NCBI GenBank assembly: GCA_964601825.1 | Contig: CAZROS010000001.1 | Span: forward strand, 1-25,758 | Source of the DNA: an uncultured archaeon | Lineage (GTDB): Archaea; Aenigmatarchaeota; Aenigmatarchaeia; Aenigmatarchaeales; JACQIB01 | DNA length: 25,758 nt | Direction: 5' to 3' | Shown here: in pieces, positions 5,192 through 25,689 of the stretch | Layout of the letters: every line of letters starts with the position of its first letter | Numbering within the stretch: position 1 is the first letter of the stretch | Notes under the pieces: generated by a model | Told to the model about the DNA's origin: nothing | Databases searched by the model: none | What the model saw: the letters and a program-made list of their open reading frames with translations, nothing else | Made by a program: the position numbers and the translations under genes

Positions 5192-5857
5192 ATGAGAAAT
5201 ATAATGTTCACAACTACTACTGAAAATCTGCGCACCATAATTGCAGGAATGGAACCAACAGAAGATGATTCTATATTGGCTATTGCAGGTTCGGGCGATC
5301 AGGCATTTGCGCTTTTAGAATATGCTGGAAAGGTAACGGCAGTAGATATAAATAGTGATCAAATGTGGTATGTGAGGAAGAGAATAGATGCTCTAAAAAA
5401 AGGGCATTACAGAGAATTTCTGGAATCCCCAATTAATGATGTGACAGAGTTTCTAGAAAGAAGTTCAAGAAATATATATTTCAGAGGTTTTTTCAGAACA
5501 AATAGAAGACTGGAGCGCATAAGAAAAAGATTGGATAGATTGGAAATTGTGGAAGGTGATATTTTTCAAATTATTAAAAAACAGAAAGGCAATTTTAACA
5601 AAGTATATTTTAGTAATTTGGGAGATTGGGTGGCTAGAGAACAGTTATATGAATCTGATGGATTAGACCATTTGCCGAATGGCTGCCTTGTTTATTGTTC
5701 ATCGGGCCCTCCTGTAGAAAGCGATCATTTAGTTGTAGACGAAAGACTAACATCACAATCAAGAAGGTTCGGCAAGTATTGGAGACCAACAGTTTACAGA
5801 AAAGTCTCACCGCCGATTCAATTTTCTCCTGTCGCACCAGTCAGATATGTTGCATAA
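5192..5857 (+). CDS. Class I SAM-dependent transferase, DUF3419/BtaA-like
   Basis: 'ILAIAGSGDQAFALL...VTAVDINSDQ' resembles the DUF3419/BtaA SAM-binding motif. Arg codons are AGA-rich, unlike neighbouring core genes. Confidence 0.55.
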   Translation: MRNIMFTTTTENLRTIIAGMEPTEDDSILAIAGSGDQAFALLEYAGKVTAVDINSDQMWYVRKRIDALKKGHYREFLESPINDVTEFLERSSRNIYFRGFFRTNRRLERIRKRLDRLEIVEGDIFQIIKKQKGNFNKVYFSNLGDWVAREQLYESDGLDHLPNGCLVYCSSGPPVESDHLVVDERLTSQSRRFGKYWRPTVYRKVSPPIQFSPVAPVRYVA

Positions 5858-6156: not shown

Positions 6157-6804
6157 ATGCGCACCTTTATTCTCTACAGCCACGCCCGCACTGATTCAAA
6201 CTGGAATATAGAAGACATGCCTAGCTCTGGTGGAAGAATGGATTTAGTGACAAGATGCGTTTCCGCAAGCCTCTGGCTTTCTTACACAATTCGGCGCGAT
6301 GCGGAGTTTATTGTTATTTTGAACGGCGCCCCTCGGCCGCCGATTGCAATAAAATTTTCCGGAGAAAAATTAAAAAATGTTTCTCCAGATGAGCGTTCTG
6401 TTGGGCTGTGGCTGAAAAAAGTTTTGGCGCAAGAAATTCCAAAAGACTGGCTGGAAGTTTTTCCGGGAATTTTCGCAGCCCAAAAATCTTTTCAGGGAAT
6501 TGTGAAAGAATACTCAAATGAACGCCCACGTTCAATCACGGGAAGAGCTTCAAATAAAGTTTTTGTTCTGCACGAAAAAGGCGAGCCAATTCAAGAGCAG
6601 AAATTTTCTGCGAGCGGCAATTTAGTTTTTGTGCTTGGAGACAATGTTGGCATCCCAGCAAAGGATGAAAAGTTTGCTTTGCGCTCAGCAGAAAAAATTT
6701 CGCTTGGGAAAACTTCATATGTCGCGAGTGCGTGCGTTTCTGTTGTGAACTGGATTTTAGACGGCTCGGCGCAAGGTAAACCTGTACGCCCCGCTAAATT
6801 GTGA
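6157..6804 (+). CDS. trmY: tRNA (pseudouridine54-N1)-methyltransferase, SPOUT
   Basis: GGRMDLVTRCV, LSYTIRRD, SPDERS, VFVLGDNVG, ISLGKTSYVASAC motifs. Confidence 0.93.
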   Translation: MRTFILYSHARTDSNWNIEDMPSSGGRMDLVTRCVSASLWLSYTIRRDAEFIVILNGAPRPPIAIKFSGEKLKNVSPDERSVGLWLKKVLAQEIPKDWLEVFPGIFAAQKSFQGIVKEYSNERPRSITGRASNKVFVLHEKGEPIQEQKFSASGNLVFVLGDNVGIPAKDEKFALRSAEKISLGKTSYVASACVSVVNWILDGSAQGKPVRPAKL

Positions 6805-6912: not shown

Positions 6913-9681
6913 ATGATTCCGCTATTGCAGAAAATTCTTGAAGCAAATCTATGCGACTCTTGTGTAGGCAGGCAGTTTGGCCAATTGCTTTCAGGCTACA
7001 CAAACGCAGAGCGCGGGAAATTTCTGCGCGCTTTTGCAGCAACAGCTGTTGACGGGAGAAAGCTCTCAACAGAAAAAATAAATCCAAATAATTTTTCTGG
7101 CTTTAAGTTCAGGCAGAACGCGGATTTTGAGAAAATTCTAATAGGGGTGCGGGGTGCGAAGCATCCTGCGTGTGAATTGTGTTATGGACTTTTTGATAAC
7201 TTGGACAAAACAGCAAAGCGCATCTCAAACTCCCTAAGCAAATATGAATTCTCAACTTTTGTTATTGGCACAAACCTCTCGCGCAAACTTTTGGATGCAG
7301 AAGAGAAATTGTGGGAGCGCTGCGGAATTGATTATTGCGAGCCCATGCGGGCTGAATTAAACAGAGAGCTGGGCAAGCGAGTTGAAAAAATTGCAGGAAA
7401 AAAAGCAGACTTGAAAAAACCTGACATTGCTGTTCTCTTGGACATGGAAGCGAACAAAGTTTGGCTGAATGTAAACCCGCTTTTTATTTTCGGCTATTAC
7501 CAAAAATTGCAGCGCGGATTCCCGCAATGCAAATGGGGCACGCCTCACAAATACAAAACTTCTGTTGAGGAGCAAGTGGGTTTGCCTGCTTTAAAATTAA
7601 CTTTAGGAAGAGACCACAAATTTCACGGATGTGTCGCTGGAGATACGAAAATCCTACTCAACGAATGTTCGCTTCCAATCAGAGAGTTAGAAAATTCCTA
7701 CAGCAAACATGAAGCAATGTCTTTTGACGAGAAAGAGAAAAAAATAGTTGCATCAGATATAAAAGATTTCATGAAAATGAAAGCCGTCATATATAAAGTT
7801 AAAACAAAAGAAACCGGAAGAGATATACTTGTTACAAATGAGCATCCGTTCTTTACATCCGAAGGGATGAAGCCGCTTGCGAACTTAAAAATGGGCGAGC
7901 TTGTCGCTGTTAATCCTTTAGAGCCCGCCACATATTCTGAATTTAAAGGAAAAATAATTTCAGATGAAAAAGAAATTAATTTAGTTATAGAGAAATATGC
8001 GCCGACTTCTTTCAAATCTAAAATAATCAAAGAGCTGAAAGAAAGAAAATTGCTGCCGCTTTTTGCTGATAGCCCCTCTGCTTTGATTCTTGCGAGAATC
8101 GCGGCATTTCTGTTTGGAGATGGAAATGTAAGATATACAAGAAAAAGAGATGTTGGAATAGAGTTTTATGGTGAAGTTGTTGACTTGAGAGAAATACAAA
8201 AAGATTTAGAAAAATTGGGATTTAAGTCTGAACTTTATAAGAGAAATTTGAGAACATCAATTATAAAAGATTATTATGGAAACGAAAAAATAATAGAACC
8301 CAAAAAAGAGCAGAGAGTTTTGGTTTGCTATTCTAAAAGCTTGTGGGCTTTGCTTGTAGCATTGGGCGTGCCTGTGGGAAATAAAGTTGTAAACGAATTT
8401 AAAATACCAGATTGGATAAAAGAGTCAGACTCATTCAAGAGAGAATTTCTCGCTTCTTTATTTGCTTGCGAGATGGACGTTCCAAGATTAGACAAAAGAA
8501 ATTACAACAGAAAGAGCTTTAACACTCCCAGATTTTCTCTGAACAAAATAGAAAGCAAAGTCAATAACATGGTTGCATTTATGGAAGATATAAAAGAAAT
8601 TCTTTCGGAGTTTGGAATAAGAACTCTCAAATTAAGGCTTCTGCCTTACACTACAAGAAAAGATGGAAATAAATCTATAAAGGTAATACTGGACTTCAAT
8701 AACAGTTTTGAAAATCTGATAAATTTATACAACAAAATAAACTTCAGGTACTGCAGGCAGAAAGAAATTCGCTCTAAACATGTACTGGAATATCTGCTCA
8801 TGAAAAAATATTTTGTTGATAAGCGCAAAGAGCTTTACAAAAAAGCTTTGGAATTAAAGAAAGATGGAATGAAATTATCTGAAATTCATAGAAAGCTGAA
8901 TAGCGATCATGTTAGTAAAAAAGACTTGTGGCTGTGGGTTAGTGGCAATATAAAAAATAGAAATATAAAAGTTCGGAATAATTTCCCAAGTTTTGATGAT
9001 TGGCTCAAAAAACATTCAGAGGGACTTGCTTATGGGTTGATTTGGGAAACAATAGAATCTGTAGAAAAGGTTGGTGAAGATTTCGTTTATGATTTGACCA
9101 TTCCAAGAAATCATAATTTCTTTGCCAACGGCTTTTTGGTTTCAAACTCCGGCCGCGAGGATATTGATGCACGTTGCCTTGCCTGGCGGCCGTTTGTTTT
9201 GGAGATTGCAAAGCCGCGGCTGCGCAAAATTGATTTAAAGAGATTAGAAAAAACAATTTCAAAATCAAAAAAAATAAAAGTCCGCGGATTGAAATTTTCC
9301 AATATGGAAACTGTCCGCGAAATTAAAGCAGCAGCTGTTGACAAAACTTACAGAGCGCTCGTTCAATTGAAAAAATCCATTAGCAAAAAAGATTTGAAAA
9401 AACTTTCTGCTTTGCGCGGAACAATTTCCCAGCGCACTCCTGAAAGAGTTTTGCACAGGCGCGCGGATTTACATAGAAAGCGCGAGGTTATTTCAATAAA
9501 AGCAAAATTAAAAAATAAAAAAACTTTGGAGCTTGTGATAAAGGGGAGCGCAGGGCTTTACATCAAGGAATTAATTTCCGGAGACAATGGCAGGACGCGC
9601 CCGAGCGTTTCAGAAGTTCTTGGGACAGAAGCGAAGTGCAAGGAATTAGATGTTGTAAATATAGGAAAGATAAAACTTTAG
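6913..9681 (+). CDS. pus10: tRNA pseudouridine 54/55 synthase Pus10 precursor containing an intein (416 aa after splicing)
   Basis: N-terminal LCDSCVGRQF and CELC Zn ligands, THUMP region 'AELNRELGKR', catalytic 'FHG|SGREDIDARCL', C-terminal 'SQRTPERVLHRRAD' and 'AGLYIKELISGDNGRTRPS'. Confidence 0.95.
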   Translation: MIPLLQKILEANLCDSCVGRQFGQLLSGYTNAERGKFLRAFAATAVDGRKLSTEKINPNNFSGFKFRQNADFEKILIGVRGAKHPACELCYGLFDNLDKTAKRISNSLSKYEFSTFVIGTNLSRKLLDAEEKLWERCGIDYCEPMRAELNRELGKRVEKIAGKKADLKKPDIAVLLDMEANKVWLNVNPLFIFGYYQKLQRGFPQCKWGTPHKYKTSVEEQVGLPALKLTLGRDHKFHGCVAGDTKILLNECSLPIRELENSYSKHEAMSFDEKEKKIVASDIKDFMKMKAVIYKVKTKETGRDILVTNEHPFFTSEGMKPLANLKMGELVAVNPLEPATYSEFKGKIISDEKEINLVIEKYAPTSFKSKIIKELKERKLLPLFADSPSALILARIAAFLFGDGNVRYTRKRDVGIEFYGEVVDLREIQKDLEKLGFKSELYKRNLRTSIIKDYYGNEKIIEPKKEQRVLVCYSKSLWALLVALGVPVGNKVVNEFKIPDWIKESDSFKREFLASLFACEMDVPRLDKRNYNRKSFNTPRFSLNKIESKVNNMVAFMEDIKEILSEFGIRTLKLRLLPYTTRKDGNKSIKVILDFNNSFENLINLYNKINFRYCRQKEIRSKHVLEYLLMKKYFVDKRKELYKKALELKKDGMKLSEIHRKLNSDHVSKKDLWLWVSGNIKNRNIKVRNNFPSFDDWLKKHSEGLAYGLIWETIESVEKVGEDFVYDLTIPRNHNFFANGFLVSNSGREDIDARCLAWRPFVLEIAKPRLRKIDLKRLEKTISKSKKIKVRGLKFSNMETVREIKAAAVDKTYRALVQLKKSISKKDLKKLSALRGTISQRTPERVLHRRADLHRKREVISIKAKLKNKKTLELVIKGSAGLYIKELISGDNGRTRPSVSEVLGTEAKCKELDVVNIGKIKL
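7630..9147 (+). mobile_element. Intein with LAGLIDADG homing endonuclease (506 aa)
   Basis: Starts CVAGDTKILL, block B VTNEHPFF, endonuclease motifs ARIAAFLFGDG and FLASLFACE, block F/G VYDLTIPRNHNFFANGFLVSN, followed by Ser+1. Confidence 0.95.
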
Positions 9682-9737
9682 TCACTAGTAGTCACAAAGG
9701 TTTATATCGCACTTCATTCCTTTCTTTTCAGATTCGT

Positions 9738-10880
9738 ATGGATTTATCTGTTATAGAAAATGATTTTAAAACAGTTCTCAGCCAGAAAAGGCTTTTAGAC
9801 CATCTGAGAACACAGTACAATGGCTGCACTTTGGTTTATGCAAAAAGGCATGGAAGCCAATGGAGGGCTGGAAATGTTGTTCTAGAAATTGGAATAGAAA
9901 GTGGCAGCGGCACGCGGAAAAGAGAAATTATAAAATACTATAACGACCCAGCTTATGATGCAGTAAGCGACCCGCAACAAAAAGAATATTTACAGAGATG
10001 CTACAAGGGAAATGAAATAAGGCAGCAACTGAGATTATCCACACATTACCCAAAAATGTTTCCGAGAGTTTTATGCGATGATGACAGGGCTGTGCTTATG
10101 GAATTCAAGGAAGGCGAAAGCGCTTTAGAAGTTTTCAAATCTGGTAAAGAAGATTCGAGAGATAAGGCTGCAAGATTTTCAAGGCTCGCTCCTCAAAGGC
10201 TTCAAGAAATGTTTTCAACATATCCTAAATCTGATGCGCCTAATTCACATTGCTTGGAAGATGTTTCGCGGACAATTTTTTACCATACAGAAAGGCTGCG
10301 CAATGACAGCAGATTTAATTTGCCGGAAGAAGAGTTTAGAAGAATTGTAGATCTAACAAGAGAGTGGAGCCTAAAACTTTCGAAAAGATATGTTGGCCAG
10401 CCAATTCATGGAGATTTGAATGCTGATAATTTGAGAATTACAGAAAGCGGCGAGCTTTCCCTGATAGACCCGAAAGATGATTCTAGCAACAGCATTGTAA
10501 AAGATTTCGGCAGGTATGTGCCGTCATTTTTAGTTAACTGCTTCGATTACAGTGGTTGGGGTGTTGATTTCGCAGCCGCGCGAGCTAAGGAAATGATAAA
10601 GAGTTTGAACTTAACAAAAGAGGAAGTTGCAAGATTGAGATTTTTCTCTGGCCAGTCAATGCTTTCGTTTTCTTATTATGGAACTCAAAAAGATGGAAAA
10701 GATAACAGCGGAAATCCAAAAAGAAACGGCCCGCTTTCGCAAACATACAGAAGGCATTCTATAAGAACTTTGAGTGATTTGGAAGCTGCTGGCAAGGAGG
10801 ATGTGGACACGTTTGCAGAATCTTTTGCTGGAACTTTTGTGGAAGAAGCACAAAAATATCAAGCTGTTGCAGGTGTTTGA
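9738..10880 (+). CDS. Aminoglycoside phosphotransferase/choline kinase-like protein
   Basis: IHGDLNADN catalytic loop and LIDP motif. The ATG at 9738 avoids the overlap with pus10 implied by the track start 9636. Confidence 0.75.
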   Translation: MDLSVIENDFKTVLSQKRLLDHLRTQYNGCTLVYAKRHGSQWRAGNVVLEIGIESGSGTRKREIIKYYNDPAYDAVSDPQQKEYLQRCYKGNEIRQQLRLSTHYPKMFPRVLCDDDRAVLMEFKEGESALEVFKSGKEDSRDKAARFSRLAPQRLQEMFSTYPKSDAPNSHCLEDVSRTIFYHTERLRNDSRFNLPEEEFRRIVDLTREWSLKLSKRYVGQPIHGDLNADNLRITESGELSLIDPKDDSSNSIVKDFGRYVPSFLVNCFDYSGWGVDFAAARAKEMIKSLNLTKEEVARLRFFSGQSMLSFSYYGTQKDGKDNSGNPKRNGPLSQTYRRHSIRTLSDLEAAGKEDVDTFAESFAGTFVEEAQKYQAVAGV

Positions 10881-11390
10881 ATGATAGTAATTTTTTCGGG
10901 CCTGTCGGGTTCGGGAAAAACCGCAATAGCTTTTTCACTTGCAAAGAAAATTGGCGCAGAAATAATCAGAAACGATGAAATAAGAAAATCTCTTTTTCCC
11001 AATCCAACCTATTCTGAAGAGGAGAAAAAAGTAGTTTACAAAACAATGTTCTTGCTCGCGAAAAAAATTTCTGAATCTGGAAAGCATGTTATTTTGGATG
11101 CAAGTTTTTATAAAAAATCTTTGAGAGATGAGGCGCGCTCTTTGGGAAAAACTTTTCTGGTTTACACAAAATGTCCTTTGGAGATTTGTGTGCAGCGCAC
11201 AAACCACAGAGATGGAAGTGAAGTTGCTGAAAGCGATAAGAGAACTTATGCGCTGAACGAAAAATACGGAACACTTCCTGGAATTAGTGTGCCATTTGAA
11301 GAGCCAGAGGATGCCGACTTAACTTTGAAAACAGACAATCTTAGTATAGAAGAAAGTGTTGAGAAAATACTTAATGAAATAAAGAATTAA
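10881..11390 (+). CDS. P-loop small-molecule kinase (AAA_33/adenylylsulfate-kinase-like)
   Basis: GLSGSGKT Walker A, VILDAS Walker B, C-terminal 'PGISVPFEEPEDADLTLKTD' resembling CysC. Abuts the upstream stop (TGAATG). Confidence 0.8.
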   Translation: MIVIFSGLSGSGKTAIAFSLAKKIGAEIIRNDEIRKSLFPNPTYSEEEKKVVYKTMFLLAKKISESGKHVILDASFYKKSLRDEARSLGKTFLVYTKCPLEICVQRTNHRDGSEVAESDKRTYALNEKYGTLPGISVPFEEPEDADLTLKTDNLSIEESVEKILNEIKN

Positions 11391-15849: not shown

Positions 15850-16365
15850 CTAAACAAAAACAATATTCTTAGCAATATCAATCATTTCCTTGCAAACATT
15901 TATCATGTCGGTGATTTTCTTTTCATCCTCAATGGAAACTTTTACGCCATAAGTATAATCTTCCCTCATTTCAATAATGCTGTCCATGTCTTCATATTTT
16001 AACAGATTGGTAAACTTTTCATCAATCTCTAATTTGCCCTCTTCTTTCAATTTTTCAATCAGCGCAACAGTGCATGTTTGGTTTCTTGATTCATAGCCAA
16101 ACTTAAGAGCTATCGCCAGGAAACAATGGTAAACACAGTAAAAGCCCGCAACCATTGACCAGTCTGAAAATCCTATTTTGCTAAAACTCCCGATGGCACT
16201 GAAATTGTGCGCAGCCTTTTCAATATGCCTTTTTGCCGCCTCAATATCTGGCTTTATTTTTAGCAATCCCCTGTGTTTGGGCCTTTTTCCCAGCTTTCTA
16301 TTTTCTTCCATTTCTTTATTTGCTTTATTCAGGCACCATTCAATATGCCTAGAAGCGTGAGACAT
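15850..16365 (-). CDS. HEPN domain protein
   Basis: HIEKAAHNF, 'FYCVYHCFLA', 'GYESRNQTC', 'MREDYTY' HEPN pattern. Overlaps the upstream MNT gene. Confidence 0.8.
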   Translation of the reverse strand: MSHASRHIEWCLNKANKEMEENRKLGKRPKHRGLLKIKPDIEAAKRHIEKAAHNFSAIGSFSKIGFSDWSMVAGFYCVYHCFLAIALKFGYESRNQTCTVALIEKLKEEGKLEIDEKFTNLLKYEDMDSIIEMREDYTYGVKVSIEDEKKITDMINVCKEMIDIAKNIVFV

Positions 16366-16948
16366 CCTTTATCATCTCCACATATTTATCCTGCCCGTAG
16401 AGCACAATAGAATTTTTCACAATATCAACCATTGCTTTATCTTTCTTTTTAAGGCTGTTGGAAAAATCGCTTTGCGTCAGCTTTATTGCATGAAGTTTTT
16501 TCGGCAGCACCTTTTCCTTTTCCCTAAGAATAGCATTCACCTCTCTGGTCTCTGACTTTTCCATAATAATCATAATGTCAATATCCCTCGCATGAGAATA
16601 ATTTTTCAATGCAGAGCCGAACATTATTACCACTCTGTCTTTTTCTAATAATTCTTTGAACTCTTCTTTCCATCTATTGAAGTTGTTGGCTTCGTCTGCA
16701 AGCAAAAATGCCGCGAGCTTGCAAACATAGCTATCTTCCAGTTTGAGCTTGTAAACTATAGATTTTCCAATTTTTTCGGATTCCAGAATGCTGCTGGCGC
16801 TCAGCCTTTTTAGAATCTTCTGCGTGCCCACGTGGCTTATGCCCAAACTCTTACTCAGCAAATTTGCATTGTAAAATGCGGCAAAATCTTTGAGTAAATA
16901 AAGCAATGCAGCTCTCTCATTTTTGGTAAGCTTTATCATAATAACCAC
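16349..16948 (-). CDS. wHTH plus minimal nucleotidyltransferase (MNT antitoxin-like)
   Basis: N-terminal HTH (LSKSLGISHVG...) and FGSA...DIDIM (GS/DxD) motif. Confidence 0.85.
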   Translation of the reverse strand: MVIMIKLTKNERAALLYLLKDFAAFYNANLLSKSLGISHVGTQKILKRLSASSILESEKIGKSIVYKLKLEDSYVCKLAAFLLADEANNFNRWKEEFKELLEKDRVVIMFGSALKNYSHARDIDIMIIMEKSETREVNAILREKEKVLPKKLHAIKLTQSDFSNSLKKKDKAMVDIVKNSIVLYGQDKYVEMIKDVSRF

Positions 16949-20676: not shown

Positions 20677-20787
20677 TTATTTCACTTCAATTGTTGCTTC
20701 AAATTTGTTGTTGCCTCTTGTAGAATCTGCTTCTCTTAAAGCATTTTCAGGGTCAGCCTCAATTTTGATTTTATAGACTCCTTGCAT
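20677..20787 (-). pseudogene. Orphan C-terminal half of a CARDB-type domain
   Basis: MQGVYKIKIEADPENALREADSTRGNNKFEATIEVK* fits the CARDB pattern GxYxIxxxxDPxNxIxExxxxNN. Overlaps the end of the 354-aa ORF in another frame. Confidence 0.6.
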
Positions 20788-21800
20788 TTTCCTTCTTCTA
20801 CTTCTTCAAGCATTTTTTGAATTTCTCTATCGCAGGTAGTTTTACAATTCCAAAGTTCAGGACCTGTTGAGAAACCGACATCAAAGAACATAATAAAAAT
20901 ATTTGCCCCAACACCTCCCCGAAGTCCGCTTTCACCAACAATTTTCCCGGTTCTTATCCTATTTCCCACTTCTTCAGCTATTCTCTGACTACCAGACTTA
21001 GGATGGAGCCCTCTCTTTGTATTGAATTCAACCTGAACTCTCCTTAGTTCCATTTCTCTCTCTAACATTGTTAGAGACTTTCCGGTTATTCTTTTTTGCC
21101 ATTCATCAACTATCGCTACAGCATCCTTTTTACTGAAAGGGGCGGATGATTCGTGTAAAGGCTTTCGAATCTCTTCTACACCATCAAATTTTAGAGATTT
21201 TTTCAAGGATTCTGAAAATTCAGTAACACCCGGATCGGATCTAAATTTGTATTTCACAAGAGCGGTTCTTCCAACCGTAACACCTCTAGGGTCGTCTAAA
21301 CCCGAGCTTATCGCATGCGTTGAAGCTTCTGCTTTTACATTAATTTTTTCATGCGTTCCAGCCAAAAATTTTGCCTGGGCTCCTGCTATTTCGGTCGGAG
21401 TTGCAGATTCTGTAACGAAAATTGTACCTTTCTTGATTAATTTATCTTTCTCAAATATTGGGGGGTCTTCATGTAAACCAAGTGGAGCAGAAGATTGTCG
21501 TGCGGTCCCGAAAACAACTGTGGGTGAAGATGATTGAGCATATGGATCTTTTTGTGTTCTCTCCTCATCATGTGGTGTATTAGTTTCTCCAAACAAACAT
21601 CTGTTCATACAATCTCTAGATAAATCTCCTGCAGTTAGGCTAGAGAATTCCACAGAAGCTTTTTTTACACCGTAGCCGATCGGATCGCACAATTGCGGAA
21701 TATTATAACACGGATTTGCAGCAACAGTTGCAGCTAGAGAAACTGTTGAAAGTAAAGAAAAGTAAATAGAAAATAAAATAATGGGAGTCTGGATTCGCAT
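20736..21800 (-). CDS. Secreted Cys-containing hypothetical protein (354 aa)
   Basis: Hydrophobic signal peptide ending in 'SLAA', Cys pairs at both ends, motifs shared with the two upstream ORFs. Confidence 0.7.
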   Translation of the reverse strand: MRIQTPIILFSIYFSLLSTVSLAATVAANPCYNIPQLCDPIGYGVKKASVEFSSLTAGDLSRDCMNRCLFGETNTPHDEERTQKDPYAQSSSPTVVFGTARQSSAPLGLHEDPPIFEKDKLIKKGTIFVTESATPTEIAGAQAKFLAGTHEKINVKAEASTHAISSGLDDPRGVTVGRTALVKYKFRSDPGVTEFSESLKKSLKFDGVEEIRKPLHESSAPFSKKDAVAIVDEWQKRITGKSLTMLEREMELRRVQVEFNTKRGLHPKSGSQRIAEEVGNRIRTGKIVGESGLRGGVGANIFIMFFDVGFSTGPELWNCKTTCDREIQKMLEEVEEGKCKESIKSKLRLTLKML

Positions 21801-24752: not shown

Positions 24753-25001
24753 TCACAAATTATAAAATACAACCCAAACTATAAACCAGACGAAAAAATA
24801 AATCCAGCCGCTGTTTGAGAAATACCATTTGTAGCCTTTCTTATTTTCCACAAAAAAATTTTCAAGGACAAACGCGCCCACGAAAAATCCCGCAAGCGCG
24901 AGCCCGGTTGCAGCCAAATTATTTTTCAGCAGAAAACTTGCATAGCCAAGCATAATTCCCAAAATCATGTAAAATATCAGCACAGAATTTTCCTCTTTCA
25001 T
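24753..25001 (-). CDS. Small 3-TM membrane protein, DUF5379/EMC6-like
   Basis: C-terminal 'WYFSNSGWIYFFVWFIVWVVFYNL' resembles the archaeal DUF5379 pattern. Start moved to ATG 25001. Confidence 0.6.
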   Translation of the reverse strand: MKEENSVLIFYMILGIMLGYASFLLKNNLAATGLALAGFFVGAFVLENFFVENKKGYKWYFSNSGWIYFFVWFIVWVVFYNL

Positions 25002-25053
25002 GAAAGAGCTTTCAAAGAACAAGATTTATAAATGTATGTTTACAATACCCAGC

Positions 25054-25689
25054 ATGCAAACTGACTGGAAAATTGCTGCTGCCGCAATAATCGGGCTTTC
25101 AATAGTTGCGTCTGCGCTGATTTTCTCCGGCAATGATGTTGTAAGCGGATTTTTCTCGCTGCCAACTCCGAGCTCGAAAACAACGCAAATAGAGCTTTCG
25201 CTTTCAGAGGACAAATACAGTTTTGATGTGAATGACGCGCCGCTTGTGGAAGTTCTGGTTGGAACCCCATTAGAAAATATCGCGCTGCAAGTTGGGAAGG
25301 AAAGATTTGATTTGAGCAGCCTTCAAACTGCAAGCCTCAAAGCAGAGAGCTTCACTGGCAGAATAGAGTTTTATGACAAGAAAATAATTCTAAAAGGCTC
25401 TGCGAAAAAAGCTTTTGTGAACAGCATTGGATTTAAAGATAAAGTAAGCATTATCTTGGAAGCAGATCATTTCTCAAAGCTTGTGGCGGAAAAAATAAGG
25501 CTTAACACGTTTTCCAATTCTGTAACCGGTACTTTGAGCGCTGACAGCGGGAAAACTTTAGTGCAGCTTGATAAGGACTCGCTTAATATCGGCGGGTTTG
25601 AGGGGAATCTAGTTTCAGAGGGAAGTGGTATAAATCTTGAAGGAATCGCACAGAGAGTTTCTGTTGCAGGCAAGGTCAACATTGGGTGA
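25054..25689 (+). CDS. N-terminally membrane-anchored beta-rich hypothetical protein
   Basis: MQTDWKIAAAAIIGLSIVASALIF anchor. ATG 25054 lies downstream of TTTATAAA at 25025-25032. Confidence 0.65.
   Translation: MQTDWKIAAAAIIGLSIVASALIFSGNDVVSGFFSLPTPSSKTTQIELSLSEDKYSFDVNDAPLVEVLVGTPLENIALQVGKERFDLSSLQTASLKAESFTGRIEFYDKKIILKGSAKKAFVNSIGFKDKVSIILEADHFSKLVAEKIRLNTFSNSVTGTLSADSGKTLVQLDKDSLNIGGFEGNLVSEGSGINLEGIAQRVSVAGKVNIG

What the first reader, a model, noticed from the sequence alone, without database searches (positions are those of the whole stretch)
7630..9147. LAGLIDADG intein inserted in the catalytic motif of Pus10
Seen: a 506-aa intein splits FHG|SGREDID, with the catalytic Asp at extein +5, so Pus10 activity depends on splicing. 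It ends Ser-Asn instead of the usual His-Asn. By hand count only 3 of about 27 Arg codons in the intein are CGN, versus about 12 of 18 in the C-extein, suggesting recent foreign origin. Established: inteins favour conserved active sites, mostly in replication/repair proteins; I do not recall Pus10 as a standard host. Inference from memory: its internal layout (LKERKLLPL...ARIAAFLFGDG...LEKLG...LGVPVGNK...IPDWIK...FLASLF...FPSFDDW) resembles the Methanocaldococcus RtcB intein, implying a jump between two tRNA-processing genes.
Basis: partly seen in the sequence, partly recalled or inferred. Interest (0 to 1): 0.72.

Follow-up and report, generated by a model that had tools for sequence, protein, structure and literature searches.

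The report
Homing-endonuclease intein inside archaeal Pus10
The tRNA pseudouridine synthase gene pus10 of this DPANN-type archaeon is interrupted, five residues before its catalytic aspartate, by an intact self-splicing intein with a homing endonuclease; this is an ordinary kind of mobile element in a host gene and site not described in the literature I could search, and the closest relatives of this genome lack it.

Summary
ORF 6913-9681 encodes archaeal Pus10 (TIGR01213, 394 bits). A 506-aa class-1 intein with a LAGLIDADG endonuclease sits at nt 7630-9147, between FHG and SGREDID.

All splicing residues are present: Cys1, Thr69/His72, Asp488/His495, Asn506 and Ser+1. Both endonuclease acidic residues are present: Asp164 and Glu281.

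The Ser-Asn ending is the norm for this intein family, not an oddity.

The element is not unique. At least 13 other Pus10 genes carry an intein at the same site, including two mini-inteins. They come from Aenigmarchaeota, Micrarchaeota and unclassified archaeal MAGs. I found no paper that describes them.

The 120 closest Pus10 relatives (51-88% identity) are all intein-free. A syntenic orthologue shows the precise empty site (FHG|AGRED). In the extein tree the window is nested, with bootstrap 100, among intein-free alleles. Horizontal gain in this lineage is therefore the best reading.

The codon argument does not show this. The Arg counts are right, but the intein's codon usage is typical of the window (z=+0.3), and the CGN-rich exteins are the outlier.

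RtcB inteins belong to the same family (31-36% identity). The Pus10 inteins form their own clade (bootstrap 98) with an unresolved sister group, so a direct RtcB-to-Pus10 jump is unsupported.

Verdict: new member of a known kind, of modest interest.

The parts
6913..7629 (+). Pus10 N-extein (aa 1-239): zinc-ribbon cysteines (CDSC...CELC), THUMP domain and the start of the catalytic domain, ending ...KFHG.
   Evidence: PF22023 Pus10_THUMP_arc 86 bits and TIGR01213 394 bits. The spliced pus10 gene (N- and C-extein joined) is 82% identical in nucleotides to the intein-free orthologue in L015, and homology runs up to window position 7628.
7630..9147 (+). Complete 506-aa class-1 intein with an embedded LAGLIDADG homing endonuclease, in frame and uninterrupted.
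   Evidence: Boundaries. PF14890 71 bits, TIGR01445 and TIGR01443. AlphaFold2 model with pLDDT 91.1 and pTM 0.89. Top Foldseek hits are the TliVMA intein 7qss, PI-PfuI 1dq3, PI-TkoII 2cw7 and PI-SceI. The segment is absent from the syntenic orthologue L015.
7630..7944 (+). N-terminal half of the splicing (HINT) domain, intein aa 1-105. Block A is Cys1. Block B is Thr69-x-x-His72 (VTNEHPF, nt 7831-7851).
   Evidence: Motif positions. Aligns to the Ssp DnaB mini-intein. Retained in the mini-inteins P0048 and P0051.
8065..8745 (+). LAGLIDADG endonuclease core, intein aa 146-372. Motif 1 is IAAFLFGDG with Asp164. Motif 2 is FLASLFACEMD with Glu281. Lys252 lies in VPVGNK.
   Evidence: PF14528 24.5 bits. 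G163, D164, G165 and K252 are nearly invariant across the family. This is the second most conserved segment among the 11 full-length Pus10 inteins, after the C-terminal HINT half (60%): 52.5% mean identity and 43/227 invariant columns. It is deleted in the mini-inteins. Foldseek matches to I-DmoI, I-SceI and PI-SceI.
8746..9024 (+). Helical domain between the endonuclease and block F, intein aa 373-465. It is probably a DNA-binding or helix-turn-helix-like accessory domain (inferred).
   Evidence: Helices 376-411, 416-423, 430-438 and 455-462 in the model. Free-standing or partial relatives P0034 and P0042 carry HTH Pfam domains. Not tested further.
9025..9147 (+). C-terminal half of the splicing domain, intein aa 466-506. 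Block F is VYDLTIPRNHNFFANG with Asp488 and His495. Block G is FLVSN with Ser505-Asn506.
   Evidence: TIGR01443 30 bits. Aligns to DnaB and CDC21 inteins. 60% mean identity among Pus10 inteins.
9148..9681 (+). Pus10 C-extein, with stop codon at 9679-9681. Ser+1 is at nt 9148-9150. The catalytic Asp (+5) is at nt 9160-9162 in SGREDID.
   Evidence: PF21238 Pus10_C 194 bits. Alignment to human Pus10 2v9k. Homology to L015 resumes at 9151.
6157..6804 (+). Context gene directly upstream: a TrmY-like SAM-dependent RNA methyltransferase (PF04013). This family methylates the pseudouridine-54 that Pus10 makes (from my own knowledge).
   Evidence: PF04013 139 bits. The same trmY-pus10 adjacency is seen in L015 and L003.

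Best explanation
Window 7630-9147 is a complete, splicing-competent class-1 intein that carries a two-motif LAGLIDADG homing endonuclease. It is inserted in frame in pus10, between Gly239 and the Ser that precedes GRED (catalytic Asp at +5).

Inferred mechanism:
1. The 922-aa precursor is translated.
2. Cys1 makes the N-S acyl shift, assisted by Thr69/His72.
3. Ser+1 attacks the thioester (trans-esterification).
4. Asn506 cyclises, assisted by block F Asp488/His495 rather than by a penultimate His.
5. An O-N shift restores FHG-SGREDID, giving a 416-aa active Pus10 and a free 506-aa endonuclease.
6. The free endonuclease would cut intein-free pus10 alleles at the same site and be copied in by repair (homing).

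The element belongs to a family of archaeal/DPANN inteins that end in Ser/Gly-Asn. Members sit in catalytic motifs of Pus10, radical-SAM enzymes, uS12, RtcB, RpoA', RpoB and HerA.

In this genome's lineage the element was gained horizontally, together with Ser at +1. The gain came after the split from its closest sampled relatives, which are intein-free with Ala at +1. The donor was an unsampled Pus10-intein allele.

Shown: the anatomy, the family membership, the empty site and the phyletic pattern. Inferred: splicing, endonuclease activity, and the direction and time of transfer.
For: Anatomy:
- Boundaries and residues.
- HMM hits above cut-off for the intein N- and C-terminal regions, the splicing domain and LAGLIDADG.
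- Confident model (pLDDT 91) whose best PDB matches are bifunctional inteins: TliVMA, PI-PfuI, PI-TkoII and PI-SceI.

Functional constraint:
- 11 full-length allelic Pus10 inteins (505-521 aa) are all open.
- They have invariant GDG, E/D in motif 2 and PRLD..N.KSFN.P.FS.N.
- The endonuclease core is more conserved than the N-terminal splicing half: 52.5% versus 38%.

Homing cycle:
- Two mini-inteins (167 and 147 aa) lie at the same site.
- One of them (P0051) is in a gene whose exteins are 91.5% identical to a gene (P0201) with a 521-aa intein.

Gain in this lineage:
- The 120 best Pus10 relatives are all 399-429 aa.
- The syntenic orthologue L015 has FHG|AGRED, and homology breaks at 7628/9151.
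- The window is nested with bootstrap 100 inside an intein-free, Ala+1 clade, and intein-bearing alleles are scattered over about 6-7 places in the extein tree.

Rarity: the junction pattern occurs in only 7 of 185,579 species-representative genomes, all Aenigmarchaeota, Micrarchaeota or unclassified archaea.

Ser-Asn is usual in the family. Splicing without a penultimate His is established: Chen, Benner & Perler 2000, as cited in PMC4031507.
Against: - No experiment was done. Splicing and cleavage are inferred from conserved residues only.
- No intein more than 56% identical to this one was found among about 15 billion proteins. The proposed recent donor is therefore unsampled.
- No co-conversion tract is visible in the exteins apart from Ser+1.
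- Codon usage of the intein is indistinguishable from the host's. This fits either a related donor or long residence.
- Pairwise intein and extein identities are correlated among the 11 intein-bearing genes (r=0.81, Mantel p=1e-4). This also fits partial vertical inheritance.
- Motif 2 has Ala where relatives have Gly (LFACE versus FG.E), which could weaken the endonuclease.
- The trees are neighbour-joining on about 400-500 columns, not maximum likelihood.
Confidence: 0.82

Rival explanations
1. One reading: the Pus10 intein arose by a jump of the (Methanocaldococcus-type) RtcB intein from one tRNA-processing gene to another.
For: The best NCBIfam match of the intein is NF038162 'intein-containing RtcB family protein', 280 bits over intein residues 1-506. 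RtcB inteins at three different RtcB sites share the whole layout and 31-36% identity.
Against: Radical-SAM (36-40%), RpoB (38.6%) and uS12 (up to 37%) inteins are at least as close. In the NJ tree the Pus10 inteins are monophyletic (bootstrap 98). Their nearest neighbours are rSAM and RpoB at bootstrap 32 and 27. All RtcB lineages fall outside that group. No Methanocaldococcus sequence appeared among the listed hits, so the specific comparison was not possible.
Confidence: 0.08
2. Ancient resident: the intein was already in the Pus10 of the common ancestor of these DPANN lineages and was inherited vertically. It is missing from most relatives, including the window's nearest ones, through repeated precise loss or gene conversion by intein-free alleles.
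For: Intein and extein pairwise identities are correlated (r=0.81, Mantel p=1e-4) and of similar size, 0.47 versus 0.44. Intein GC tracks host GC in seven loci with a constant offset. Codon usage is host-like. No close donor intein exists in the databases.
Against: It needs at least 4-5 independent precise losses just around the window, each followed by or coupled to Ser to Ala/Asn at +1, and dozens across the tree. The correlation is partly carried by a few local clusters (P0046/L005; L001/L003/P0201).
Confidence: 0.15
3. Dead insertion: the intein no longer splices (Ser505 instead of His, Ser+1 nucleophile), so pus10 is functionally inactivated in this reduced genome.
For: The penultimate His is missing. 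DPANN genomes lose many genes (general knowledge).
Against: The 2766-nt frame is fully open. Every catalytic residue other than the penultimate His is present. Ser-Asn is the majority state in the family, including 97 of 103 junction matches among the RtcB inteins. The exteins show only 7 unique substitutions against their closest relatives, fewer than the intein-free P0327 and P0328. This indicates continued purifying selection on Pus10.
Confidence: 0.04
4. Assembly or binning chimera: the insert is an artefact of metagenome assembly.
For: The contig comes from a metagenome-assembled genome (inferred).
Against: The insertion is in frame, codon-exact and at the same site in at least 13 independent assemblies from different projects.
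Confidence: 0.01

Closest known systems
Archaeal bifunctional LAGLIDADG inteins with solved structures (TliVMA/PhoVMA inteins 7qss/7qst, PI-PfuI 1dq3, PI-TkoII 2cw7, PI-SceI 1vde)
   Same: The architecture matches: a HINT splicing domain split by a two-motif LAGLIDADG endonuclease plus accessory DNA-binding parts. These are the top Foldseek matches (E 1e-16 to 1e-9). The class-1 residues are the same (Cys1, TxxH, terminal Asn).
   Different: Only 11-16% sequence identity. Different host genes (V-ATPase, RNR, PolB). The penultimate residue is Ser rather than His. There is an extra helical domain at aa 373-465.
RtcB inteins (NCBIfam NF038162 'intein-containing RtcB family protein'; RtcB listed as an intein host in PMC4760082)
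   Same: Same intein family. Colinear over all 506 residues at 31-36% identity, with the same motif order (LKERxLLPL, GDG, LGxPxGNK, FLAxxFGxE, FxxW, HNFxANxFxVSN) and the same Ser-Asn end. The host is also an RNA-processing enzyme, interrupted at its active site.
   Different: Different host and site. The Pus10 inteins form a separate clade with bootstrap 98. The whole-protein cut-off of NF038162 (1150 bits) is not met because the exteins are Pus10, not RtcB.
Sister inteins of the same family in radical-SAM enzymes, ribosomal protein uS12, RpoA', RpoB and HerA (metagenomic, undescribed as far as I could search)
   Same: 30-40% identity over the full length for the radical-SAM, uS12, RpoA' and RpoB members, and 27-29% for HerA and some RpoB members. 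They share the same endonuclease, and each is inserted immediately before a Cys/Ser in a catalytic or universally conserved motif: CPW|C of CX3CX2C, PNSAxRK|C, |CNPYNADF and ETPEG..|CGLVKN.
   Different: Different hosts, and nearly all use Cys at +1. The window and most Pus10 alleles use Ser at +1.
Intein presence/absence polymorphism and the homing cycle in Haloarchaea (e.g. MCM and PolB inteins; PMC10643990)
   Same: Sporadic distribution among close relatives, coexistence of full-length and endonuclease-deleted mini-inteins at one site, and an empty site in near relatives.
   Different: The host here is an RNA-modification enzyme rather than a replication ATPase. The lineage is uncultured DPANN, and no homing has been observed experimentally.

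Membership tests
Intein (class 1, HINT-domain protein-splicing element) | Cys or Ser at intein position 1 (block A) | tested here: met
   Cys1 in CVAGDTKILL, nt 7630-7632. Invariant in all 13 Pus10 alleles.
Intein (class 1, HINT-domain protein-splicing element) | Block B Thr-x-x-His | tested here: met
   Thr69-Asn-Glu-His72 in VTNEHPF. The His is invariant among the 11 full-length Pus10 inteins (and retained in both mini-inteins), while the Thr position varies (T/S/A/K).
Intein (class 1, HINT-domain protein-splicing element) | C-terminal Asn (block G) followed by Cys/Ser/Thr at extein +1 | tested here: met
   Asn506 | Ser+1. All alleles have SN|S or SN|C.
Intein (class 1, HINT-domain protein-splicing element) | Penultimate His (block G:6). 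Common but not obligatory. | tested here: not met
   Ser505. The family-wide tally is S 37, G 17, H 12, L 2, K 1. Splicing without it is documented (Chen et al. 2000, cited in PMC4031507). Block F Asp488/His495 are present.
Intein (class 1, HINT-domain protein-splicing element) | HINT fold and profile matches above curated cut-offs | tested here: met
   PF14890 71.0 bits (cut-off 35.8), TIGR01445 40.0 bits (24.5), TIGR01443 30.2 bits (15.6). Foldseek matches to mini-inteins with TM (target) 0.56-0.61.
Intein (class 1, HINT-domain protein-splicing element) | In-frame insertion in a conserved host protein that is absent from orthologues | tested here: met
   120 of the 120 closest Pus10 proteins lack it. 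There is a precise empty site in the syntenic locus L015.
Intein (class 1, HINT-domain protein-splicing element) | Autocatalytic protein splicing | not testable with these tools
   Requires expression of the precursor and analysis of the products.
LAGLIDADG homing endonuclease (two-motif, monomeric) | Two LAGLIDADG helices, each ending in a catalytic Asp/Glu | tested here: met
   IAAFLFGD164G and FLASLFACE281MD. D164 is nearly invariant in the family. The second acidic residue is E, or D in L002, in all full-length Pus10 inteins.
LAGLIDADG homing endonuclease (two-motif, monomeric) | Profile and fold match | tested here: met
   PF14528 24.5 bits against a cut-off of 22.5, which is marginal. 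Foldseek matches to I-DmoI (TM target 0.64-0.68), I-SceI, I-AniI and PI-SceI.
LAGLIDADG homing endonuclease (two-motif, monomeric) | Site-specific cleavage of the intein-less allele | not testable with these tools
   Candidate substrate: the L015 site ...AAATTTCACGGC|GCGGGCAGAGAGGAC....
Archaeal tRNA pseudouridine(54/55) synthase Pus10 (host) | Equivalog profile above cut-off, THUMP domain and catalytic GRED Asp | tested here: met
   TIGR01213 393.8 bits (cut-off 200). Pus10_THUMP_arc 86 bits and Pus10_C 194 bits. The GRED Asp aligns with human D344.
   The Pus10 clade has bootstrap 98. Its neighbours are rSAM and RpoB (bootstrap 32 and 27), and the RtcB lineages lie outside.

The most novel reading that the evidence does not exclude
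This is one branch of an undescribed, DPANN-centred intein family that ends in Ser/Gly-Asn and has a strongly conserved endonuclease. The family has repeatedly re-targeted itself to catalytic motifs of the translation and RNA machinery: the Pus10 catalytic loop, the uS12 PNSA decoding loop, the RtcB metal site, the RNA polymerase NADFDGD and ETPEG motifs, and the radical-SAM cluster motif. This contrasts with the replication ATPases that dominate known intein hosts. Splicing at these sites (here with the unusual Cys1/Ser+1 pair and no penultimate His) might be conditional. It could then act as a post-translational switch on tRNA pseudouridine-54/55 formation and ribosome maturation in these host-dependent archaea.
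Probability: 0.1. Interest if true: 0.6.

Novelty: new member of a known kind. Interest (0 to 1): 0.33.

Why it matters
Inteins are strongly biased towards replication, repair and nucleotide-metabolism proteins (61-67% in COG category L, PMC4760082). As far as the searchable literature shows, an RNA-modification enzyme has not been described as a host.

The Pus10 site adds a new insertion point in the active-site loop of a pseudouridine synthase. It comes with a natural series useful for studying intein gain, endonuclease loss and target switching in uncultured DPANN archaea:
- a full-length intein;
- mini-inteins at the same site;
- empty sites with Ala, Ser, Cys or Met at +1.

Practical points:
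- These genes are annotated as 'hypothetical protein' or as a plain Pus10 of about 930 aa. Genome annotation and Pus10 alignments should mask the insert.
- The mini-inteins (147 and 167 aa, Ser or Cys at +1, no penultimate His) could interest protein engineers.

None of this changes how inteins are understood, so the value is incremental.

Tried and rejected
1. Codon usage as evidence of foreign origin. I recomputed it three ways. The intein is typical of the window and the exteins are the outlier, so I rejected it as evidence.
2. Pure co-divergence of intein and host. I first favoured this. I revised it after the spliced-extein search showed that all close relatives are intein-free.
3. Co-conversion tract next to the insertion. 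The 30 nt downstream are only 70% identical to L015. But the protein alignment with P0326-P0329 shows no cluster of unique changes in the window. Inconclusive, so dropped.
4. Viral vectors.
   - The single-protein scan of viral contigs found one generic block-G match.
   - A degenerate HNFFANGF...N pattern found six viral inteins, in a DNA-polymerase-like protein, terminases and others. They share only the generic C-terminal splicing motif, not the endonuclease.
   - So no evidence for a viral carrier.
5. Fetching the Methanocaldococcus RtcB intein. A search seeded with the RtcB-intein protein P0121 returned mainly bacterial (CPR, Chloroflexota and others) and some archaeal RtcB inteins in its top 120, and no Methanocaldococcus. 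The specific comparison stays untested.
6. Exact look-up of the window's own contig: not on record.
7. Supplementary tables of the 2015/16 intein survey: not held.
8. tRNA and Rfam scans of the window: nothing found.
9. The antisense ORF 7698-8030 (110 aa) inside the intein. I treated it as a chance ORF, because it lies inside a conserved coding region on the other strand.


Full report
**1. What is there**

ORF 6913..9681 on the + strand encodes 922 aa. Residues 240-745 (nt 7630-9147, 506 aa) begin CVAGDTKILL and end FFANGFLVSN. They are flanked by ...GRDHKFHG and SGREDIDARC....

With the insert removed, the 416-aa product is a standard archaeal Pus10:
- TIGR01213 at 393.8 bits (cut-off 200), plus Pus10_THUMP_arc and Pus10_C.
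- It aligns with human Pus10 (PDB 2v9k). The D of SGRED falls on chain residue 345. That is native Asp344 if the one extra residue of the 530-aa chain is N-terminal (assumed). Asp344 being the catalytic residue is from my own knowledge.

So the catalytic Asp is extein +5, at nt 9160-9162.

**2. Anatomy of the insert**

Profile matches are above curated cut-offs:
- Intein splicing domain PF14890, 71 bits.
- Intein N-terminal region TIGR01445, 40 bits.
- Intein C-terminal region TIGR01443, 30 bits.
- LAGLIDADG_3, 24.5 bits against a cut-off of 22.5, which is marginal.

Key residues:
- Splicing: Cys1; block B Thr69-x-x-His72; block F Asp488 and His495; Ser505-Asn506; Ser+1.
- Endonuclease: Asp164 (IAAFLFGDG), Glu281 (FLASLFACEMD) and Lys252.

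An AlphaFold2 model built on 28 family members is confident (pLDDT 91.1, pTM 0.89). It shows a HINT domain split by an alpha/beta LAGLIDADG core (aa 146-372) and a helical domain (aa 373-465). Its best PDB matches are bifunctional archaeal and yeast inteins: TliVMA 7qss, PI-PfuI 1dq3, PI-TkoII 2cw7 and PI-SceI. Mini-inteins and free LAGLIDADG enzymes follow. Sequence identity is only 11-16% to the bifunctional inteins and free LAGLIDADG enzymes, and up to about 28% to the mini-inteins over the roughly 100 aligned HINT residues.

**3. It is not unique: a set of allelic Pus10 inteins**

An exhaustive HMMER search with the full protein, and a word-indexed search with the intein, found other Pus10 proteins interrupted at exactly HG|C...SN|[SC]GRED:
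- P0045 (928 aa), P0046 (913 aa) and P0047 (933 aa). P0047 is NCBI MFH0986855.1, Candidatus Micrarchaeota, annotated simply as Pus10.
- P0201 and P0203 (945 aa).
- P0204 (929 aa; MCD6476661.1, Candidatus Aenigmarchaeota, annotated 'hypothetical').
- The fragments P0001/P0009, P0024, P0049, P0053 and P0069.

A degenerate DNA pattern for the C-terminal junction (NGF-x-V-S-N-[S/C]-GRED) hit 7 of 185,579 species-representative genomes. They were Aenigmarchaeota x3, Micrarchaeota x1 and unclassified archaea x3. Six show complete open inteins of 505-516 aa. The seventh is cut by the locus edge.

Two genes carry mini-inteins at the same site: P0048 (167 aa) and P0051 (147 aa). The exteins of P0051 are 91.5% identical to those of P0201, which holds a 521-aa intein. 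That indicates a recent clean deletion of the endonuclease.

Among the 11 full-length Pus10 inteins the endonuclease core is better conserved than the N-terminal splicing half. It has 52.5% mean identity and 43/227 invariant columns, against 38% for the splicing half. This argues for selection on endonuclease function.

**4. Ser-Asn**

The penultimate residue among 69 family members with a defined C-terminus is Ser 37, Gly 17, His 12, Leu 2 and Lys 1. In the RtcB set, 97 of 103 junction matches end in Ser-Asn.

Splicing without the penultimate His is established: Chen, Benner & Perler 2000, cited in PMC4031507, which also names block F positions 4 and 13 as assisting residues. Both are Asp and His here. 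The feature is a family trait, not a defect.

**5. Relatives in other hosts, and the RtcB claim**

The best NCBIfam hit of the intein is indeed NF038162, 'intein-containing RtcB family protein', at 280 bits over residues 1-506. RtcB inteins at three different RtcB sites (GYGF|C, DIN|C and SPGM|C) are colinear with it at 31-36% identity. So the remembered resemblance is real.

The same family also sits in these hosts:
- Radical-SAM enzymes: CPW|C, inside CX3CX2C, 36-40%.
- RpoB: ETPEG..|CGLVKN, up to 38.6%.
- Ribosomal protein uS12: PNSAxRK|C, 30-37%.
- RpoA': |CNPYNADF, 33-34%.
- HerA: 29%.

In a neighbour-joining tree of 51 full-length inteins (499 columns, 100 bootstraps):
- The Pus10 inteins are monophyletic (98%).
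- Their grouping with radical-SAM (32%) and RpoB (27%) inteins is unresolved.
- All RtcB lineages lie outside.

A direct RtcB-to-Pus10 jump is therefore unsupported. The Methanocaldococcus sequence itself could not be retrieved.

**6. Origin in this genome**

*Codon usage.* The Arg contrast with the exteins is significant (Fisher p=2e-5). But it is the exteins that are unusual:
- They have 66% CGN, against 33% in the other 20 genes of the window (p=4e-4).
- The intein-free orthologue is equally CGN-rich, at 20/33.
- The intein differs only weakly from the other genes (11% CGN, p=0.028).
- The intein's GC3 (0.318) lies within the window's 0.364 +/- 0.053.
- Its synonymous codon choice fits the window-wide model (z=+0.30, against -1.7 for the exteins).

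The intein's low GC (0.335) comes largely from first and second codon positions, that is, from a Lys/Asn/Ile-rich composition. In seven loci the intein is always 2-11 points below its host gene and tracks host GC.

*Phyletic evidence.* This is much stronger.
- A search with the spliced Pus10 returned 120 best hits at 51-88% identity. All are 399-429 aa, so all are intein-free.
- The closest, P0326 (88%), lies in a syntenic locus, L015: PTPS-related, cytidylyltransferase, SRP54, TrmY, Pus10, deaminase, AAA_18.
- The pus10 of L015 is 82% identical in nucleotides to the spliced window gene. BLAST homology breaks at window 7628 and resumes at 9151. The empty site reads CACGGC|GCGGGC, that is FHG|AGRED.
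- In an extein tree of 91 Pus10 sequences the window is nested, with bootstrap 100, in a clade of intein-free alleles with Ala (once Asn) at +1. That clade sits inside a larger Ala+1 group. The intein-bearing alleles are scattered over about 6-7 positions.

Parsimony therefore favours gain of the intein, with Ser at +1, in the window's lineage after it split from its nearest sampled relatives.

*Caveats.*
- No intein more than 56% identical exists in the databases searched, so the donor is unsampled.
- No co-conversion tract is visible in the exteins.
- Intein and extein distances correlate among the 11 intein-bearing genes (r=0.81, Mantel p=1e-4). This fits transfer mainly between related lineages plus stretches of vertical descent. 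It also leaves some room for an old resident with repeated loss.

**7. Mechanism (inferred)**

The steps are standard class-1 splicing:
1. Cys1 makes an N-S acyl shift, helped by Thr69/His72.
2. Ser+1 carries out the trans-esterification.
3. Asn506 cyclises, helped by Asp488/His495.
4. An O-N shift yields FHG-SGREDID.

In the precursor the insert separates the His-Gly strand from the GRED catalytic loop by 506 residues. Pus10 activity should therefore require splicing. This is an inference and was not tested.

The released protein should act as a homing endonuclease on empty pus10 sites. Among intein-free relatives the +1 position is variable:
- A 51, S 15, M 14, C 5, L 5 and T 2 in one set.
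- A 42, S 25, M 17 and C 5 in another.

So many alleles already offer a nucleophile. In the others it would have to arrive with the intein.

**8. Comparison and novelty**

The element is a bona fide member of the class-1 LAGLIDADG inteins and works like PI-PfuI or PI-SceI-type elements. The host and site are what is new.
- The library holds no paper with both 'Pus10' and 'intein'.
- Nothing relevant came up for inteins with (tRNA) pseudouridine synthases.
- Pus10 is not among the top-15 archaeal hosts in the large survey, where RtcB is listed with 10 cases.
- The sequences are public but annotated as plain Pus10 or as hypothetical proteins.

I rate it a new member of a known kind. It is of modest interest to intein and tRNA-modification specialists, mainly because it comes with a natural series (full intein, mini-intein, empty site) in DPANN archaea. 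It also belongs to a family that favours translation and RNA-machinery active sites.

**9. Limits**
- All functional statements are inferred from sequence and a predicted structure.
- The trees are distance-based.
- The taxonomic placement of the window rests on the names of its Pus10 relatives only: a DPANN archaeon near Aenigmarchaeota.

Noticed in passing
window 6157-6804 (+), directly upstream of pus10: A TrmY-like RNA methyltransferase (PF04013, 139 bits) precedes Pus10. This family makes m1-pseudouridine-54 from the pseudouridine that Pus10 installs (from my own knowledge). The pair therefore looks like a small functional operon, and the intein could gate both steps. The same adjacency is seen in L015 and L003.
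   Followed up: partly
proteins P0005, P0007-P0023, P0064, P0067, P0077, P0092, P0127: More than 25 clusters of archaeal ribosomal protein uS12 carry a roughly 505-515-aa intein of this same family. It is inserted in the universally conserved PNSAxRK|C decoding-centre loop. A search for papers on uS12 inteins found nothing relevant. An intein in a ribosomal protein may be more noteworthy than the Pus10 case.
   Followed up: partly
proteins P0002, P0003, P0004, P0006: Radical-SAM proteins, one from Thermoproteota, have the same intein family inserted inside the CX3CX2C iron-sulfur motif (SCNFxCPW|C). The third cluster cysteine is thus the +1 splicing nucleophile.
   Followed up: no
proteins P0208-P0215, P0220-P0222, P0225, P0227: Many RtcB proteins of about 1440-1690 aa from CPR bacteria, Omnitrophica, Acidobacteria and Aenigmatarchaeota are long enough to hold two inteins. 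RtcB inteins of this family occupy at least three sites (GYGF|C, SPGM|C, DIN|C) within 30 residues of the metal-binding Cys.
   Followed up: no
window 5192-5857, 9636-10880 and 10881-11390 versus L015: Three genes that flank trmY-pus10 in the window are absent from the syntenic locus of the close relative. They are a DUF3419-like protein, a 414-aa ORF with no Pfam hit that contains an HGDLNADNL kinase-like motif, and an AAA_33/APS-kinase-like P-loop kinase. The neighbourhood has therefore seen several indels besides the intein. The GTG start at 9636 overlaps the end of pus10 and is probably too far upstream.
   Followed up: no
window 15850-16365 (-) and 16349-16948 (-): Overlapping HEPN-domain and nucleotidyltransferase (Polbeta/NTP_transf_2) genes form a typical HEPN-MNT toxin-antitoxin-like pair.
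   Followed up: no
proteins P0034 (307 aa) and P0042 (397 aa): Short proteins with HTH domains plus a LAGLIDADG region match only the endonuclease part of the intein at 32-34% identity. One is annotated as a LAGLIDADG homing endonuclease in an Aenigmatarchaeota MAG. They may be free-standing relatives of the intein's endonuclease.
   Followed up: no
window 20736-21800 (-) and 25000-25689 (+): These two ORFs have no Pfam hit and the most atypical synonymous codon usage in the window (z=-3.0 and -3.3). On codon grounds they are better candidates for foreign DNA than the intein.
   Followed up: no
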